Part shown: positions 3,533 through 64,000 of the stretch, one piece after another
Position numbering within the stretch: position 1 is the first letter of the stretch
Layout of the letters: each line of letters begins with the position of its first letter
Virus record (IMG/VR): IMGVR_UViG_3300022839_000006
Span: 29,896-93,895 of that record
Length of the DNA stretch: 64,000 bases
Origin: a virus
Reading direction: 5' to 3' (one strand)
The notes under the pieces: model-generated
Databases searched by the model: none
What the model was told of the DNA's origin: nothing
What the model saw: the letters and a program-made list of their open reading frames with translations, nothing else
Program-made: the position numbers and the translations under genes

Positions 3533-4143
3533 CAATGAGTAAAAAAGCATCAAATTTCGACTTGGCTGATATTTTTGGCAAGCAGACAAAACAAGACGAC
3601 AAAAGTTTCTGTAAGCCTATTGTGCACATACACGAATTTTATCTGAGCGGTGTGATAGAATCCGCTGATGCTTATATCCAGTGGTTTGACACAATTCGCC
3701 ATGCTGGGTCCAACGACGCAATAAAAATATACATAAATTCGTATGGTGGAGATATAAATACTGCAATTCAAATGTTGAGAATTCTTAACGATACAGAAGC
3801 GACCGTAATTGTATCTATCGAAGGTGCGTGTATGTCGGCAGCTACTATGGTGTTGATGGTAGCGGACAGTGTTGAAGTTTCACCACATTCGCAAATTATG
3901 TTCCACAACTATTCAGGTGGTACTATCGGAAAGGGCAGTGATATGCATTCGCAGATAGAATTCGAAAGAATGTGGTCTATCAAACTGATGAACGGTGTGT
4001 ATGAAGACTTTCTGTCGAAAGAAGAAATCCAAAAACTTTTAGATGGTAGTGATTTGTGGATGGATGGCGACGAAGTTGTTAAGCGATTGGAAGCAAAAAA
4101 CAAGAAAGATAAACCTAAGTCCAAGTCCAAGAAAAAATCATAA
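3533..4143 (+). CDS. ClpP-like (S14) serine peptidase, stand-alone
   Basis: SYGGDINTAIQMLRIL, catalytic Ser region EGACMSAATMV and His region IMFHNYSGGTIG align to the ClpP GxASMG / MIHQPxGG motifs; Lys-rich tail. Start taken at MSKKAS (RBS GGAAAAACA), not the upstream in-frame ATG. Confidence 0.6.
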
Positions 4144-4607: not shown

Positions 4608-4817
4608 ATGACAAATAATCGCAGTCGCATTGCTACTCTCATGCAGGTTAGTTCGGCAATAACAGTTGATGAAATTTCTGAGATAACAGGAATTTCTACT
4701 CTGGAAGCGCAGGAAATACTGATAACAATGGACGATGATGGAGACGTGTTGATGCGTAACGGATTTTACCGCGCATCTGAATTACTCAAGACCAAGAGAA
4801 TACAACAAGGAAAATAA
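4608..4817 (+). CDS. small hypothetical protein (possible winged-helix DNA binding)
   Basis: 69-aa ORF, RBS AGGAGGATAAAAGATG. Confidence 0.45.
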   Translation: MTNNRSRIATLMQVSSAITVDEISEITGISTLEAQEILITMDDDGDVLMRNGFYRASELLKTKRIQQGK

Positions 4818-4821
4818 TCAG

Positions 4822-5004
4822 ATGAGACTTTTTTTTACTGAGCACACAATAATCAATTTAAATTCGATTTGCTCTGTTGACATCAAAAATAACATCGTCA
4901 ACACCGTGGACGGTAACCATACAGTAATGCTGAGTCTACAAGAAACAAAAAATCTCGTTTCTGCCCTGAGAGAGATCCACAATCAAAACTATCGAAGAAC
5001 ATGA
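4822..5004 (+). CDS. small hypothetical protein
   Basis: 60-aa ORF immediately after upstream stop. Confidence 0.3.
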   Translation: MRLFFTEHTIINLNSICSVDIKNNIVNTVDGNHTVMLSLQETKNLVSALREIHNQNYRRT

Positions 5005-12809: not shown

Positions 12810-13210
12810 ACAAGTCACACAACGGAGAAAAATTATGGAAAATCTGATCGAGGCATATTGAGCGAGAAAACAAAAGGAAACAATAAATGACAGCTCAGCA
12901 GAAATGAAATCAATTGACGACAATCTTTATTCTGGCCATGGAAGATACCGTGGTGTGTATATTGAATTATATGAGGGATAAAATGAAACGAACAGTTAGA
13001 ATTGCATTGAGAATTATTGGTTAACTATTACATGGAATGGGCATGTGACGCGGGACTGGCCGGTGGGGAACAATATACTCGATATTGCCAAGACATTACT
13101 GTTCTATATTTCCAGAAGATGTACTTTATGAAGATGTAACAAAAGAATACAGTTGACAACCAACACACTATAATATAAATAACAATATCATTAACTAGAG
13201 GAGTTCTATA

Positions 13211-44568: not shown

Positions 44569-44624
44569 GAATGCTCTTACCTATAAATATCAGCAAATGA
44601 AATCTTTATGAAAAGAGGAAATGA

Positions 44625-48687: not shown

Positions 48688-48695
48688 TATAAATA
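48688..48695 (+). promoter_or_regulatory. T4-type late promoter box TATAAATA upstream of the PAAR gene
   Basis: Exact TATAAATA ~30 nt before the ATG. Confidence 0.5.
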
Positions 48696-55722: not shown

Positions 55723-55829
55723 AGTAGATTTTTCCTTTTTGTTTATAGATCACGATTATTTATAATATTTTATTTCTCAAGGTTATTTATCAAGATGAGA
55801 ATTTCTATTTAAAACAAAATTCCCAACTG

Positions 55830-59828: not shown

Positions 59829-59860
59829 GTTAATTGTTCTCCTTGTTATATCTATTTATA

Positions 59861-61810: not shown

Positions 61811-62623
61811 CTAGAGCCAGCTGTTGTACCGTACAGGCATATCATCTTCTTCTAGCTCGTCACCTATACTTACAAAGCCGAAAGGGAGTAATTCTTCCTC
61901 TATTTGTTCTTCGCTCTTTTCACGCAATTTCATCATTGTGTTGATGTCAGTCAGGTCTTTGAAGTAACCTTGATCAGTTAACCACGAAAACAGAACCAGG
62001 GTCATAACAAGATCATCGTGTGAGCCAGATTCTGCCTCATATGATAGACCCTTCTTAGAGAATTTGGAAAGCTCTTGAATGGTGTTGAAATCTGGAACGA
62101 GCAATTGGTTCTGCTCGATTAACATTTTTAGAATTGAACAGCCGATAGATTTTACTGATTTTGTTGTTCTGATACCTCGATCTACATTCTTACCAAAACC
62201 GCCAGAGACTCTTTTTCCCGACCGGCCTCCATTTTCTGTCATGACAAGATTTTCATATCCATAGTCAAGGAAAAGAATGTCTGATACCTGACCACCTATG
62301 TCATTGACCTCGACCATAACATGTGCTTCATTATAAAGCGTCGCAACTCTAAATATAGTAGCGGCATAATCAACAGGGCCAGTAAAATTATCTCTAAATG
62401 TACACACTTGCTTGTACGGCATTTGAGTTATGTCCAGAACAGAGAAAGCAGAATAATCCAAACCTTTGCCACGAGAAACATCAACTACCATTGCATATGT
62501 ATGACCAGTAACAACAGGGTCATACTGAAGCAGGCCCTCACTTTGAGTCACTGGTTTTGAATGTGCCATTTCTTTGAGTTTCTGTCCTGCGATCAAAGTA
62601 CCAGAGCTGCCAAGGAATTCGCA
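61811..62623 (-). CDS. g17: terminase large subunit C-terminal (nuclease) extein
   Basis: Begins CEFLGSSGTLI straight after the intein HN; RNase-H-like nuclease domain with MVVDVSRGKGLDYSAFSV. Confidence 0.75.
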   Translation of the reverse strand, partial: CEFLGSSGTLIAGQKLKEMAHSKPVTQSEGLLQYDPVVTGHTYAMVVDVSRGKGLDYSAFSVLDITQMPYKQVCTFRDNFTGPVDYAATIFRVATLYNEAHVMVEVNDIGGQVSDILFLDYGYENLVMTENGGRSGKRVSGGFGKNVDRGIRTTKSVKSIGCSILKMLIEQNQLLVPDFNTIQELSKFSKKGLSYEAESGSHDDLVMTLVLFSWLTDQGYFKDLTDINTMMKLREKSEEQIEEELLPFGFVSIGDELEEDDMPVRYNSWL

Positions 62624-62956
62624 GTTATGAGATACCATATTATTAGTATAATATTTGTGGCCGTTGCTCACTTCAAGCGCGTCGTATACATCCGCAGTTT
62701 CATTCTTATCTATAGAAAGAGTTGCTACTCTCGAATAGCCGCTCTTCGTTTTCAATCTCGATCCTATATATAAATTCTGCGCTTGTATAAACCCTGCTTC
62801 AGTCTCTATTTTATGATCCAGCGTACATTCTAATAGATTGCCGATTTCATCTACAATGGTTACTATACCGGTAGTGGTTTTTTTATACACACCGTGAAAA
62901 TCCGCCCATCCACTGTCCGTTAGTATTTCATACTGGGTGTTGTTCTTTTTCGTCAT
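62624..62956 (-). other. intein C-fragment (111 aa: blocks B, F, G) translated from its own ATG and RBS
   Basis: Block B GNLLECTLDHKIET, block F ADVYDALEV, block G NNMVSHN then Cys+1. Confidence 0.7.
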
Positions 62957-63140
62957 GGTAGGTCCTTTGTGGGAATGCCTTTTCTCTATGGTGTTGTTCT
63001 TATAGCAGCCGGCACCACATCACATGTTTCAGCGCGCCACAGAACGAGAAGCGGACTTCTCGTTAAATCTCCTTTATTCTTTCTTCTGGAGTCGTTCGCC
63101 GCGATTTGTACACGTGTGTTTTCTCATCTCCATCCTATTT

Positions 63141-63148
63141 TATTTATA
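63141..63148 (-). promoter_or_regulatory. late promoter box TATAAATA inside the 203-bp gap between the terminase halves
   Basis: Minus strand reads GATTTATAAATAAAATAGG ~185 nt upstream of the IntC start. Confidence 0.45.
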
Positions 63149-63162
63149 AATCAAGGAATTCA

Positions 63163-63258
63163 CAAGTGCAAATTTTCATAAAGTTCTTCTATGAAGATCG
63201 TTTTTATCTCGCCTGTTTCTTTGTCTCTTATGGTGATTTGAGTGTTGCCCTTCACGCA
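63163..63258 (-). other. intein N-fragment (32 aa: block A only) fused to the end of the terminase ATPase ORF
   Basis: C-VKGNTQITIRDKETGEIKTIFIEELYENLHL then a stop; block A C-x-x-G-x-T. Confidence 0.7.
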
Positions 63259-64000
63259 GCAATATTCTTGCGCAAACTTGTCTTGGTCGTGATCAAGAGC
63301 TTCGAGAGTTTCCTGTTTCCAAGCTTCACCTCTGCCTGGGACATCATTCCACATAACACGTACAAACTCATATCCGTTGGTGCCTTCCTCTGCACCTTTA
63401 CAGGTTTTCCAATAGTGGTTAATGCCATTTGGAGTTGAAGTCATTAATAATTTTGTTGTCTCGCCGGACGAAATTGTAGGATAAACAGAGGCGAAGAATT
63501 CATCGTACCCTTCGATAAACGCGACCTCGTCGAGATACAGAAACGAGATTGACTTGCCTCGAATTGCACTTGATGACGTAGTGCCTGCATATATCTTACA
63601 ACCGTTTTCTAATTCTATAGAGCCTTTGTTCCACTCCTCTACGCCTTGCTGTAGCCACCTAGGGAGCGCCTCGTACGCAAGCTGAATTCTATTGAGAACT
63701 TCTCTTGCAGAGTCACCTTTATTTGCAAGGATTGCTGCTGTCTTATATTCGTTAAATAGAATATAGTGTAGAATCACGGCTGCGGCAGTTGTGGTTTTGC
63801 CACTTTGCCTTGCTGTCAACACCGCAACTCTTCTATTATCTGTAATTTTACGGACAATTTCCTCTTGGTAACCGTACATTTCAAACGGTATAAGCCCTTT
63901 GTCTACGTGCACAATTTTTATATATGTCTTGGCAAAATATACCGGATCGTTGGCACATTTCATGTACTCTTGTAGTAATTCCGGCGTCCATTCAATTGCG
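63259..64000 (-). CDS. g17: terminase large subunit N-terminal (ATPase) extein; 5' end beyond window
   Basis: Walker A TARQSGKTT and Walker B FLYLDEVAF; frame is open to the window edge. Confidence 0.75.

What the first reader, a model, noticed from the sequence alone, without database searches (positions are those of the whole stretch)
61811..63258. Terminase large subunit interrupted by an atypically split (trans-splicing type) intein
The g17 ATPase ORF ends ...AQEYC then CVKGNTQITIRDKETGEIKTIFIEELYENLHL and a stop. That 32-aa tail is a textbook intein block A. After a 203-bp gap with stops in all three frames, a new ORF begins. It has its own RBS (AAAGGACCTACCATG) and a TATAAATA late box in the gap. 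It starts with 111 aa carrying block B (TLDHK), block F (VYDALEV) and block G (VSHN) followed by Cys+1 (CEFLGSSGTLI...) and the nuclease domain. So the intein is divided after block A rather than after block B. This matches the unusual short-IntN / long-IntC split architecture reported from metagenomic phage TerL genes. Here it sits in an otherwise intact T4-like morphogenesis operon. An essential packaging enzyme would then depend on protein trans-splicing.
Basis: partly seen in the sequence, partly recalled or inferred. Interest (0 to 1): 0.85.

Follow-up and report, generated by a model that had tools for sequence, protein, structure and literature searches.

The report
Split-intein terminase with decayed homing endonuclease
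This T4-like phage encodes its DNA-packaging motor (terminase large subunit) as two genes that must be joined by a short-N/long-C split intein, which is a real but already known and common arrangement, and the 203-bp spacer between them is the wreck of a homing-endonuclease gene.

Summary
A TerL ATPase ORF ends in a 32-aa IntN (63258-63163). A 203-bp gap follows, with stops in all frames. A second ORF then opens with a 111-aa IntN-less intein half (62956-62624; TLDH, VYD, SHN) and Cys+1, fused to the nuclease domain. Removing IntN, gap and IntC restores a 533-aa TerL that aligns without an indel at the junction to the intein-less phiN3 TerL.

The closest solved structure is 6DSL, the CatN/CatC consensus of the AceL-TerL and GOS-TerL atypical split inteins. 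It has the same insertion site and the same split point. An independent assembly of a 99% variant has the same gap, so this is not an assembly error.

The arrangement is common: 556 matches in IMG/VR. In 80 loci examined:
- About 40 carry a GIY-YIG or Vsr-like homing endonuclease gene between the halves.
- About 14 have short, empty gaps that are demonstrable deletion derivatives.
- Seven are contiguous.

The window's gap keeps the endonuclease's late promoter (TATAAATA), RBS and start codon, and possibly its C-terminal end.

This is a new member of a known kind, not a new kind. Trans-splicing itself is inferred, not shown.

The parts
63259..64000 (-). TerL N-extein (ATPase domain), visible part. 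The ORF starts 47 nt beyond the window end. The last N-extein residues are ...FAQEYC (Cys at -1).
   Evidence: Pfam Terminase_6N 1.6e-24. Full 295-aa ORF in the identical contig L005. Collinear with phiN3 TerL.
63163..63258 (-). IntN, 32 aa: CVKGNTQITIRDKETGEIKTIFIEELYENLHL (block A, Cys1).
   Evidence: Aligned with 32 other IntN sequences from related loci. The family profile hits CatN 6DSL_A at E=4e-11.
63160..63162 (-). Stop codon (TGA) ending the N ORF.
62957..63159 (-). 203-bp gap with no ORF. Read here as the vestige of a GIY-YIG homing-endonuclease cassette.
   Evidence: Stops in all frames. No Rfam match. The same gap with 2 SNPs is present in the independent assembly L086. Relatives carry HEG genes at this position.
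63141..63148 (-). T4-type late-promoter box TATAAATA. It sits within ATTCCTTGATTTATAAATAAAATAGG, which is conserved with the 5' UTR of the endonuclease gene in relatives.
   Evidence: alignment with L006, L008, L011, L018, L087 and others. Motif enrichment in the window.
63074..63127 (-). Vestigial start of the endonuclease gene: a GGAG RBS-like stretch, then ATG and 17 codons (MRKHTCTNRGERLQKKE) before a stop. Compare AGGAGATTGTGATGAGTAAAAAT in L008 and L087.
   Evidence: Sequence compared with the HEG starts. This is inference from position and short similarity.
63043..63064 (-). Perfect 9-bp hairpin with a 4-nt loop (AACGAGAAG/CTTCTCGTT). No T-run follows. Function unknown.
   Evidence: The gap as a whole is not unusually structured (z = -1.2).
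62974..63108 (-). Possible remnant of the endonuclease C-terminal DNA-binding end (QIAANDSRRKNKGDLTRSPLLVLWRAETCDVVPAAIRTTP*). Tentative.
   Evidence: tblastn to L013 HEG aa 181-225 is the best HSP in the whole 64-kb window. 0 of 1000 shuffles reach it. The family HMM does not detect it.
62963..62967 (-). Shine-Dalgarno-like AAGGA, 6 nt before the IntC start codon.
   Evidence: Sequence.
62624..62956 (-). IntC, 111 aa, from Met1 to Asn111. Carries block B (T45-L-D-H48), block F (V90-Y-D92) and block G (S109-H110-N111).
   Evidence: Alignment A1 invariants. phmmer to 6DSL_B at E=7.6e-8.
61811..62623 (-). TerL C-extein (nuclease domain), starting with Cys+1 (CEFLGSSGTLI...), 270 aa plus stop codon.
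   Evidence: Pfam Terminase_6C. Aligns to T4 gp17 3EZK/3CPE at E about 1e-44 and to the RB49 nuclease domain 3C6A.

Best explanation
The terminase large subunit of this T4-like phage is a 'fractured' gene. An intein of the AceL-TerL/GOS-TerL family sits at the hinge between the ATPase and nuclease domains, near residue 353 of T4 gp17. It is split after block A into a 32-aa IntN on the ATPase polypeptide and a 111-aa IntC on the nuclease polypeptide.

The most likely mechanism has five steps, all inferred:
1. Both halves are made late in infection, from one read-through mRNA and/or from the late promoter in the gap.
2. The short IntN docks into the partly folded IntC to complete a HINT fold.
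3. Cys1 performs the N-S acyl shift.
4. Cys+1 attacks, and Asn111 cyclises.
5. A 533-aa TerL with the junction ...QEYC-CEFLGSS... is released.

The 203-bp spacer is what remains of a free-standing GIY-YIG homing-endonuclease gene that originally split the intein and mobilised it. Its late promoter, RBS and start codon survive, and probably part of its 3' end. The middle has been deleted.

Shown here: the anatomy, the family membership, the conservation of catalytic residues, the reality of the gap, and the deletion pathway in relatives. Inferred: trans-splicing activity, promoter use, and the dependence of packaging on splicing.
For: - Anatomy and domains.
- Precise in-silico excision gives a TerL collinear with the intein-less phiN3 TerL (61% identity, no indel at the junction). 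The junction maps next to the start of the RB49 nuclease-domain structure.
- Best PDB hits are CatC and CatN, with the same extein context and split point.
- Cys1 is nearly invariant, and the block-B His, block-F Asp, His-Asn and Cys+1 are invariant or nearly so, across 31-35 diverged sequences.
- About 75 of the best 120 protein hits are ~380-aa ORFs that begin with IntC at the same site. An intein-free allele (P0007, 90% identical, junction QEYC|CQF) and a contiguous version of the same intein (P0004) also exist.
- IMG/VR holds 556 matches. In 80 loci, most gaps hold GIY-YIG/NUMOD3 or Vsr-like ORFs. The nearest diverged relative, L087, has an intact GIY-YIG gene in the gap.
- Short-gap loci are exact deletion derivatives of near-isogenic HEG-bearing loci: L023 from L022, L068 from L063, L060 from L034. 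L073 and L077 keep both ends with an internal deletion.
- The window's first ~40 gap bases match the HEG 5' UTR of relatives.
- The independent assembly L086 has the same gap. Exteins differ by 14 synonymous and 0 nonsynonymous changes.
- Literature: Dassa 2009 (PMC2677866) described a terminase split intein fractured at an unusual point, with a 122-aa IntC lacking only motif N1. The review PMC11766414 summarises demonstrated trans-splicing of AceL-TerL, GOS-TerL and Cat-TerL.
Against: - No experiment or proteomic data show splicing for this intein.
- The window's IntC is only about 32% identical to CatC.
- The AF2 model of the fused intein was uninformative (pLDDT 38).
- Evidence for the 3' endonuclease remnant is mixed. 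The pairwise match is significant against shuffles, but the family profile gives nothing.
- Between the two strain variants, IntC carries 2 nonsynonymous changes to 1 synonymous. The numbers are tiny and the changes conservative.
- Whether the TATAAATA in the gap is still an active promoter is unknown.
Confidence: 0.87

Rival explanations
1. Assembly or sequencing artefact: the intein is really contiguous and a frameshift or misjoin created the apparent gap.
For: Contiguous versions of this intein exist in other phages (P0004/L009, L081, L082). One relative (L017) has halves that overlap by 14 nt, which is one frameshift away from contiguity.
Against: IntN (32 aa) plus IntC (111 aa) already make a complete mini-intein, so the 203 bp are extra sequence rather than a shifted reading frame. 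Every frame has several stops. The exact TerL-C protein is on 3 contigs. A 0.9%-diverged variant from a different sequencing run (SRR12693555) has the same 203-bp gap with 2 SNPs. The 5' end of the gap is homologous to HEG upstream regions in many loci.
Confidence: 0.01
2. The two polypeptides work as a non-covalent two-subunit terminase. The intein halves serve only as a docking module, or not at all, and no splicing is needed.
For: The split falls exactly at the ATPase/nuclease domain hinge. Phage genes fractured by endonucleases without any intein can still give active two-piece enzymes (Aeh1 NrdA, cited in PMC2677866).
Against: Residues needed only for splicing chemistry (Cys1, block-B His, block-F Asp, penultimate His, terminal Asn, Cys+1) are invariant or nearly so across loci with only ~40% intein identity. 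Homologous TerL split inteins splice in vitro (PMC11766414).
Confidence: 0.06
3. The TerL gene is a decaying pseudogene in a defective or non-viable genome.
For: The gap contains decayed coding sequence. IntC shows 2 nonsynonymous changes to 1 synonymous between the two strains.
Against: Exteins show 14 synonymous and 0 nonsynonymous differences between the strains. All ATPase and nuclease regions align with T4 gp17. The same architecture recurs in hundreds of viral contigs. The surrounding gp13-gp21 morphogenesis genes are intact. No second TerL-like or intein-like sequence was found in the window.
Confidence: 0.03
4. The 203 bp are removed at the RNA level (group I or II intron) or skipped by the ribosome (translational bypass), giving a cis-splicing intein precursor.
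For: T4-like phages do harbour group I introns and a bypass element (established knowledge). The gap contains a perfect 9-bp hairpin.
Against: No Rfam family matches even at E<=10. The fold is no better than shuffles (z=-1.2). The C ORF has its own conserved Met and RBS. Relatives carry whole endonuclease genes, or as little as 30 bp, at this spot.
Confidence: 0.01

Closest known systems
AceL-TerL and GOS-TerL atypical naturally split inteins and their consensus Cat-TerL (PDB 6DSL). Sources: Thiel 2014, Bachmann & Mootz 2015 and Stevens 2018, as summarised in PMC11766414.
   Same: Same host protein (phage TerL). Same insertion site (QE[YF]x | C...SHN | CEF). Same split point after block A, with a short IntN and an IntC of more than 100 aa that starts M-x(n)-K/R-Y-E-I-L-T-P-x-G. 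Class 1 catalytic residues. Significant sequence similarity of both halves.
   Different: IntN is 32 aa (AceL 25, GOS 37, Cat 30). IntC is 111 aa and only about 32% identical to CatC. It uses Cys1/Cys+1 like AceL, not Ser1 like GOS. The -1 extein residue is Cys rather than Glu. Here the intein is seen in a long phage contig with full gene context and a decayed endonuclease spacer. Activity is untested.
'Fractured genes' of Dassa et al. 2009 (PMC2677866): split-intein halves flanking a free-standing GIY-YIG or Vsr-like homing endonuclease gene, including one gp17 terminase locus split at an unusual point.
   Same: Same overall architecture and evolutionary logic. Relatives of the window (L087, L006, L008, L013 and others) are textbook examples with GIY-YIG/NUMOD3 or Vsr-like (DUF559/MTES_1575) ORFs. 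That paper also recorded one locus without the endonuclease (gp41-7).
   Different: The window has no endonuclease ORF, only its promoter, RBS and start codon, and possibly its 3' end.
TerL genes of cultured phages fractured by the same intein family: Vibrio phages VP-1 (MH363700) and 1.244.A (MG592609), and Shigella phage JK32 (MK962753).
   Same: VP-1 and 1.244.A have the same insertion site (QEYD|C......HN|CSFLGS) and the same split point. JK32 has a very similar IntN (CVSGLTKVTLRDKLTGEIKEYTMLEVK) and IntC.
   Different: In those phages IntN is fused in frame to a long endonuclease-containing ORF. JK32's intein sits at the Walker B site (IYIDE|C...HN|CAFIQNW), not at the hinge. VP-1 also has a second, contiguous intein in Walker A.
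VidaL and gp41-1 phage inteins (PDB 6VGV, 6QAZ).
   Same: More distant sequence relatives of the IntC (E=4e-4 and 2e-3). Both are phage or metagenome mini-inteins. VidaL is also atypically split.
   Different: Different host proteins and insertion sites. gp41-1 is split at the canonical position (IntN 88 aa, IntC 37 aa).

Membership tests
Intein (class 1 protein-splicing HINT domain) | Nucleophile (Cys/Ser/Thr) at intein position 1 | tested here: met
   Cys1 in CVKGNT. Cys in more than 90% of family members, and Ser in a few, as in GOS-TerL.
Intein (class 1 protein-splicing HINT domain) | Block B TxxH, block F Asp, block G His-Asn, and a +1 Cys/Ser/Thr | tested here: met
   T45-L-D-H48, V90-Y-D92, S109-H110-N111 and Cys+1. 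H48, D92, S109, H110 and C+1 are invariant in A1. H, SHN and C are invariant in A3.
Intein (class 1 protein-splicing HINT domain) | Precise excision restores an uninterrupted host protein | tested here: met
   In-silico splicing gives 533 aa collinear with phiN3 TerL, with no indel at the junction. The intein-free allele P0007 has QEYC|CQF at the same point.
Intein (class 1 protein-splicing HINT domain) | HINT fold | tested here: inconclusive
The fold is supported indirectly by sequence matches to solved inteins 6DSL, 6VGV and 6QAZ.
Intein (class 1 protein-splicing HINT domain) | Protein splicing activity | not testable with these tools
   Needs expression or proteomics.
Atypically split TerL inteins (AceL-TerL/GOS-TerL/Cat-TerL) | Host is phage TerL and the insertion site is the same | tested here: met
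   Pfam Terminase_6N and 6C. CatN in 6DSL_A carries the extein EFE before position 1 and aligns to QE[YF]x|C. CatC ends SH(N>A)|CE and aligns to SHN|CE.
Atypically split TerL inteins (AceL-TerL/GOS-TerL/Cat-TerL) | Split after block A: IntN of about 25-37 aa, and IntC of more than 100 aa containing blocks B, F and G | tested here: met
   IntN is 32 aa and IntC is 111 aa. The start of CatC aligns with the start of the window's IntC.
Atypically split TerL inteins (AceL-TerL/GOS-TerL/Cat-TerL) | Halves encoded by separate ORFs, each with its own stop or start | tested here: met
   Reproduced in the independent assembly L086.
Atypically split TerL inteins (AceL-TerL/GOS-TerL/Cat-TerL) | Protein trans-splicing | not testable with these tools
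   Shown for AceL, GOS and Cat in the literature (PMC11766414), not for this sequence.
Fractured gene (Dassa 2009) | Free-standing homing-endonuclease ORF between the split-intein halves | tested here: not met
   No ORF of 50 aa or more in the 203-bp gap, only a 17-codon vestige. No GIY-YIG hit with the family HMM. Relatives do meet this feature.
Fractured gene (Dassa 2009) | Regulatory elements (promoter, RBS) of the endonuclease directly after the IntN stop | tested here: met
   ATTCCTTGATTTATAAATAAAATAGGATGGAGATG aligns with the HEG 5' UTRs of L006, L008, L011, L018 and L087.
T4-type terminase large subunit (gp17) | N-terminal ATPase with Walker A/B plus a C-terminal RNase H-like nuclease, in the gp16-gp17-gp18 gene order | tested here: met
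   (3EZK/3CPE at E about 1e-44). Neighbours gp13, gp14, gp15, a 154-aa ORF, TerL, sheath, tube, portal and prohead protease.
Group I/II intron or other known RNA element in the gap | Match to a curated RNA family, or a fold more stable than shuffled sequence | tested here: not met
   Rfam finds nothing at E<=10. z = -1.2.

The most novel reading that the evidence does not exclude
The endonuclease is gone, but its late promoter, leader and a perfect hairpin have been kept because they now serve the phage. They would give the nuclease half its own late transcript and so set the timing or stoichiometry of the two halves. Trans-splicing would then act as a checkpoint for assembling the packaging motor, rather than as a mere scar of a selfish element.
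Probability: 0.1. Interest if true: 0.55.

Novelty: new member of a known kind. Interest (0 to 1): 0.35.

Why it matters
- It gives a clean natural example, in a long phage contig with intact neighbours, of an essential packaging ATPase-nuclease that probably exists only after protein trans-splicing.
- Together with its relatives it lays out the life cycle of a 'fractured gene' in one host gene: empty site, contiguous intein, intein split by a homing endonuclease, endonuclease deleted in stages.
- In practice it adds a divergent Cys1/Cys+1 member with a 32-aa IntN, and dozens of relatives, to a small family of short-IntN split inteins prized for protein semisynthesis and labelling.
- It does not reveal a new mechanism.

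Tried and rejected
- The search for homologous proteins with the 127-aa IntC fragment alone returned nothing. The full ORF worked.
- The papers on GOS-TerL and Cat-TerL (PMC4661395, PMC7232844) are not held. I used the review PMC11766414 and the PDB sequences instead.
- AF2 on the fused intein without an alignment was useless.
- The profile search with A1 against the PDB is circular, because A1 contains CatC, so it is not used as evidence.
- The GIY-YIG family HMM found nothing in the gap. The 3' remnant therefore rests only on one pairwise match and on analogy with L073 and L077.
- A tblastn hit of the endonucleases at 23589-23470 (-) lies antisense to a + strand ORF and looks spurious.
- A weak IntC-like hit at 4668-4877 (+), E=0.24, covers small unrelated ORFs.
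- Intron, bypass, pseudogene and assembly-error readings were considered and rejected (see the rival explanations).
- Two scripts failed for technical reasons.
Full report
**Observation.** The features are on the minus strand.
- An ORF that runs off the window end ends ...DKFAQEYC|CVKGNTQITIRDKETGEIKTIFIEELYENLHL, with its stop at 63162-63160. The visible part is 63999-63163, and the full ORF is 295 aa in the identical ENA contig L005.
- The next 203 bp (63159-62957) have several stops in each frame, and the two ORFs are in different frames.
- A 381-aa ORF (62956-61811) begins with 111 residues carrying TLDH, VYDALEV and VSHN, followed by CEFLGSSGTLI and the rest of the protein.
- Pfam gives Terminase_6N (1.6e-24) for the first ORF, and Terminase_6C (1.2e-6) plus a HINT family (8e-5) for the second. 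The next gene is the tail sheath.
- In the same contig the neighbours are gp13, gp14, gp15, a 154-aa ORF, the two TerL ORFs, sheath, tube, portal and prohead protease. The 'otherwise intact T4-like morphogenesis operon' therefore holds.

**Is it an intein, and where are the junctions?**
- Removing IntN (32 aa), the gap and IntC (111 aa) gives a 533-aa protein. It aligns end to end with the intein-less TerL of Sinorhizobium phage phiN3 at 61% identity, with no indel at the junction: QEYC|CEFLGSSGTLI against QEYN|NEFLGSSGTLI.
- A metagenomic allele 90% identical in the exteins (P0007) has no intein and reads QEYC|CQFNGSS.
- Against T4 gp17 structures (3EZK/3CPE, E about 1e-44) the junction falls at about residue 353. 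That is just before the point where the RB49 nuclease-domain structure begins.
- The N ORF is therefore the ATPase domain and the C ORF the nuclease domain.

**Which intein?**
- The fused IntN+IntC finds PDB 6DSL_B, 'Consensus engineered intein CatC', as its best match (E=7.6e-8). The alignment starts at the first residues of both fragments. VidaL and gp41-1 follow at lower significance.
- A profile of 33 IntN sequences from related loci, none of them Cat, finds 6DSL_A (CatN, EFE-ALSGDTMIEILDDDGIIQKISMEDLYQRL) at E=4e-11.
- Cat is the consensus of the AceL-TerL and GOS-TerL atypical split inteins, which trans-splice in vitro. Their IntN lengths are 25, 37 and 30 aa (PMC11766414).
- Dassa et al. 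2009 had already noted a gp17 terminase split intein 'fractured at an unusual point', with a 122-aa C part that lacks only motif N1 (PMC2677866).
- Host protein, insertion site, split point and sequence similarity all match, so the window's intein is an allelic, divergent member of that family. Its IntC is about 32% identical to CatC.
- The block-B His, block-F Asp, Ser-His-Asn and Cys+1 are invariant or nearly so across 31-35 family members that share only ~40-60% identity. Cys1 is nearly invariant.

**Is the split real?**
- IntN plus IntC already make a complete mini-intein, so the 203 bp are extra sequence rather than a shifted frame.
- The exact C-ORF protein is on three contigs.
- A variant strain assembled from another run (SRR12693555, L086; 19 differences in 2190 nt) has the same 203-bp gap with two SNPs.
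- Between the two strains the exteins differ by 14 synonymous and 0 nonsynonymous changes. IntN is identical. IntC has one synonymous and two conservative nonsynonymous changes.
- This excludes an assembly artefact and argues against a pseudogene.

**How common is it?**
- Of the best 120 database hits to the C ORF, about 75 are 370-395-aa ORFs that begin with IntC at the same site.
- About 17 are intein-less TerLs.
- About 20 begin with a related IntC at other TerL sites.
- One (P0004) carries the same intein in contiguous form...QEYC|CVKGNTLVTVRAKTSGKVSTMSIEKLYEDQLSGPSKMQDKYEILT...SHN|CQFIGSS.
- IMG/VR has 556 matching stretches.

In the 80 loci retrieved:
- About 40 are split, with a gap of 525-770 bp or about 1.1-1.2 kb that holds a same-strand ORF.
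- About 14 are split, with a gap of -14 to 286 bp and no real ORF.
- Seven are contiguous.

The gap ORFs are GIY-YIG/NUMOD3 endonucleases or Vsr-like (DUF559/MTES_1575) nucleases. These are the two types described for fractured genes (PMC2677866). Cultured phages show the same family: Vibrio VP-1 and 1.244.A at the same site, and Shigella JK32 at the Walker B site.

**What is the 203-bp gap?**
- The nearest diverged relative (L087; its C ORF, P0002, is 71% identical to the window's) has an intact 233-aa GIY-YIG gene between the halves.
- The first ~40 bases of the window's gap, ATTCCTTGATTTATAAATAAAATAGGATGGAGATGAGAAAA, align with the segment between the IntN stop and the endonuclease start in L006, L008, L011, L018, L087 and others. 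That segment holds a conserved TATAAATA, an AGGAG and an ATG. In the window the ATG opens only 17 codons.
- TATAAATA is enriched in the window (7 against 1.9 expected). Several copies sit about 25-40 nt upstream of start codons, as T4-type late promoters do.
- The 3' two-thirds of the gap (63108-62974) give the best tblastn HSP in the whole 64-kb window to the C-terminal 45 residues of one such endonuclease (L013). No score from 1000 dinucleotide-preserving shuffles reaches it. A family HMM, however, sees nothing. I treat this remnant as tentative.
- The comparative pattern supports the reading. L023's 37-bp gap is the last 37 nt of the endonuclease gene of near-isogenic L022. L068's 44-bp gap is the last 44 nt of L063's gene, with the deletion between TTATGAATT repeats. 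L060 keeps only the 5' leader of L034. L073 (188 bp) and L077 (286 bp) keep both ends with an internal deletion, as proposed for the window.
- Rfam finds nothing in the region. The gap as a whole folds no better than shuffles (z=-1.2). No terminator-like site lies in it on the coding strand.
- A perfect 9-bp hairpin at 63043-63064 remains unexplained.

**Mechanism.** Shown: the anatomy, family membership, conserved catalytic residues and the origin of the gap. Inferred from the characterised homologues:
1. Both halves are expressed late.
2. The short IntN docks into the partly folded IntC.
3. Class 1 splicing (Cys1, Cys+1, Asn111) yields the 533-aa TerL.

A non-covalent two-piece terminase is the only rival with appreciable probability. 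It is disfavoured because residues needed only for splicing chemistry are conserved.

**Verdict.** Atypically split TerL inteins were noted in 2009 and have been biochemically characterised since 2014. The arrangement is common in viral metagenomes and in some cultured phages. This is a new, divergent member of a known kind, with a decaying homing-endonuclease cassette as spacer. Interest is moderate to low (0.35).

Noticed in passing
P0031, P0044, P0107, P0047, P0094; L003 (Shigella phage JK32): TerL of related phages carries similar short-IntN split inteins at other sites: just before Walker B (VHN|CNFLYLDE), just after it (SHN|CAFIEGY, and JK32 IYIDE|C...HN|CAFIQNW) and in Walker A (SHN|TTTAVA, Thr+1). 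TerL is an intein hotspot, and one gene can be cut into three pieces.
   Followed up: partly
P0004 = L009/L010; L031, L081, L082, L084, L085; L017: Contiguous versions of the same intein exist at the same site. P0004 keeps the internal Met of IntC after a 5-residue linker (…LYEDQLSGPSKMQDKYEILT). In L017 the two halves overlap by 14 nt. It is open whether contiguous forms are ancestral or re-fused.
   Followed up: partly
L001 (Vibrio phage VP-1, 337-2553) and L002 (Vibrio phage 1.244.A, 520-2481): In these cultured Ackermannviridae the IntN is fused in frame to the GIY-YIG endonuclease in one long ORF. VP-1 also has a complete contiguous intein in the Walker A motif (SGK|CVDHDT...LSHN|TTVVAAF). 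GenBank annotates the pieces only as 'terminase large subunit' or 'coil containing protein' for the N-terminal ORF and 'terminase-like family protein' for the C-terminal ORF.
   Followed up: partly
L058, L059, L077: Some family members have Ser at intein position 1 with Cys+1 (QEFE|SVSSETLIEI...). This is the unusual nucleophile pair reported for GOS-TerL. They carry Vsr-like rather than GIY-YIG endonucleases.
   Followed up: no
window 63043-63064 (-): A perfect 9-bp stem with a 4-nt loop (AACGAGAAG TCCG CTTCTCGTT) lies in the middle of the gap, with no T-run after it. It is roughly a 1-in-200 chance event in 203 nt and is conserved in the variant strain L086. Function unknown.
   Followed up: partly
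window 59853-59860 (-), 55757-55764 (-), 48688-48695 (+), 13174-13181 (+), 44582-44589 (+), 3753-3760 (+): TATAAATA is over-represented in the window (7 against 1.9 expected). Four of these six copies, at 59853, 55757, 48688 and 13174, lie about 25-40 nt upstream of ORF starts on the same strand, for example before the tail-tube gene. This suggests the phage uses T4-type late promoters.
   Followed up: partly
L004 (Sinorhizobium phage phiN3) 1125-1709 and 1709-3340: The phiN3 record annotates two adjacent CDS as 'terminase large subunit' (194 aa and 543 aa). The 543-aa one alone is collinear with the window's whole spliced TerL, so the 194-aa ORF is probably something else.
   Followed up: no
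window 63074 (-), versus L086: One of the two gap SNPs between the strains changes the stop codon of the 17-codon vestigial ORF from TAA to TAG, so it remains a stop. The other (63153) lies just upstream of the TATAAATA box. Neither touches the box, the hairpin or the IntC RBS.
   Followed up: yes
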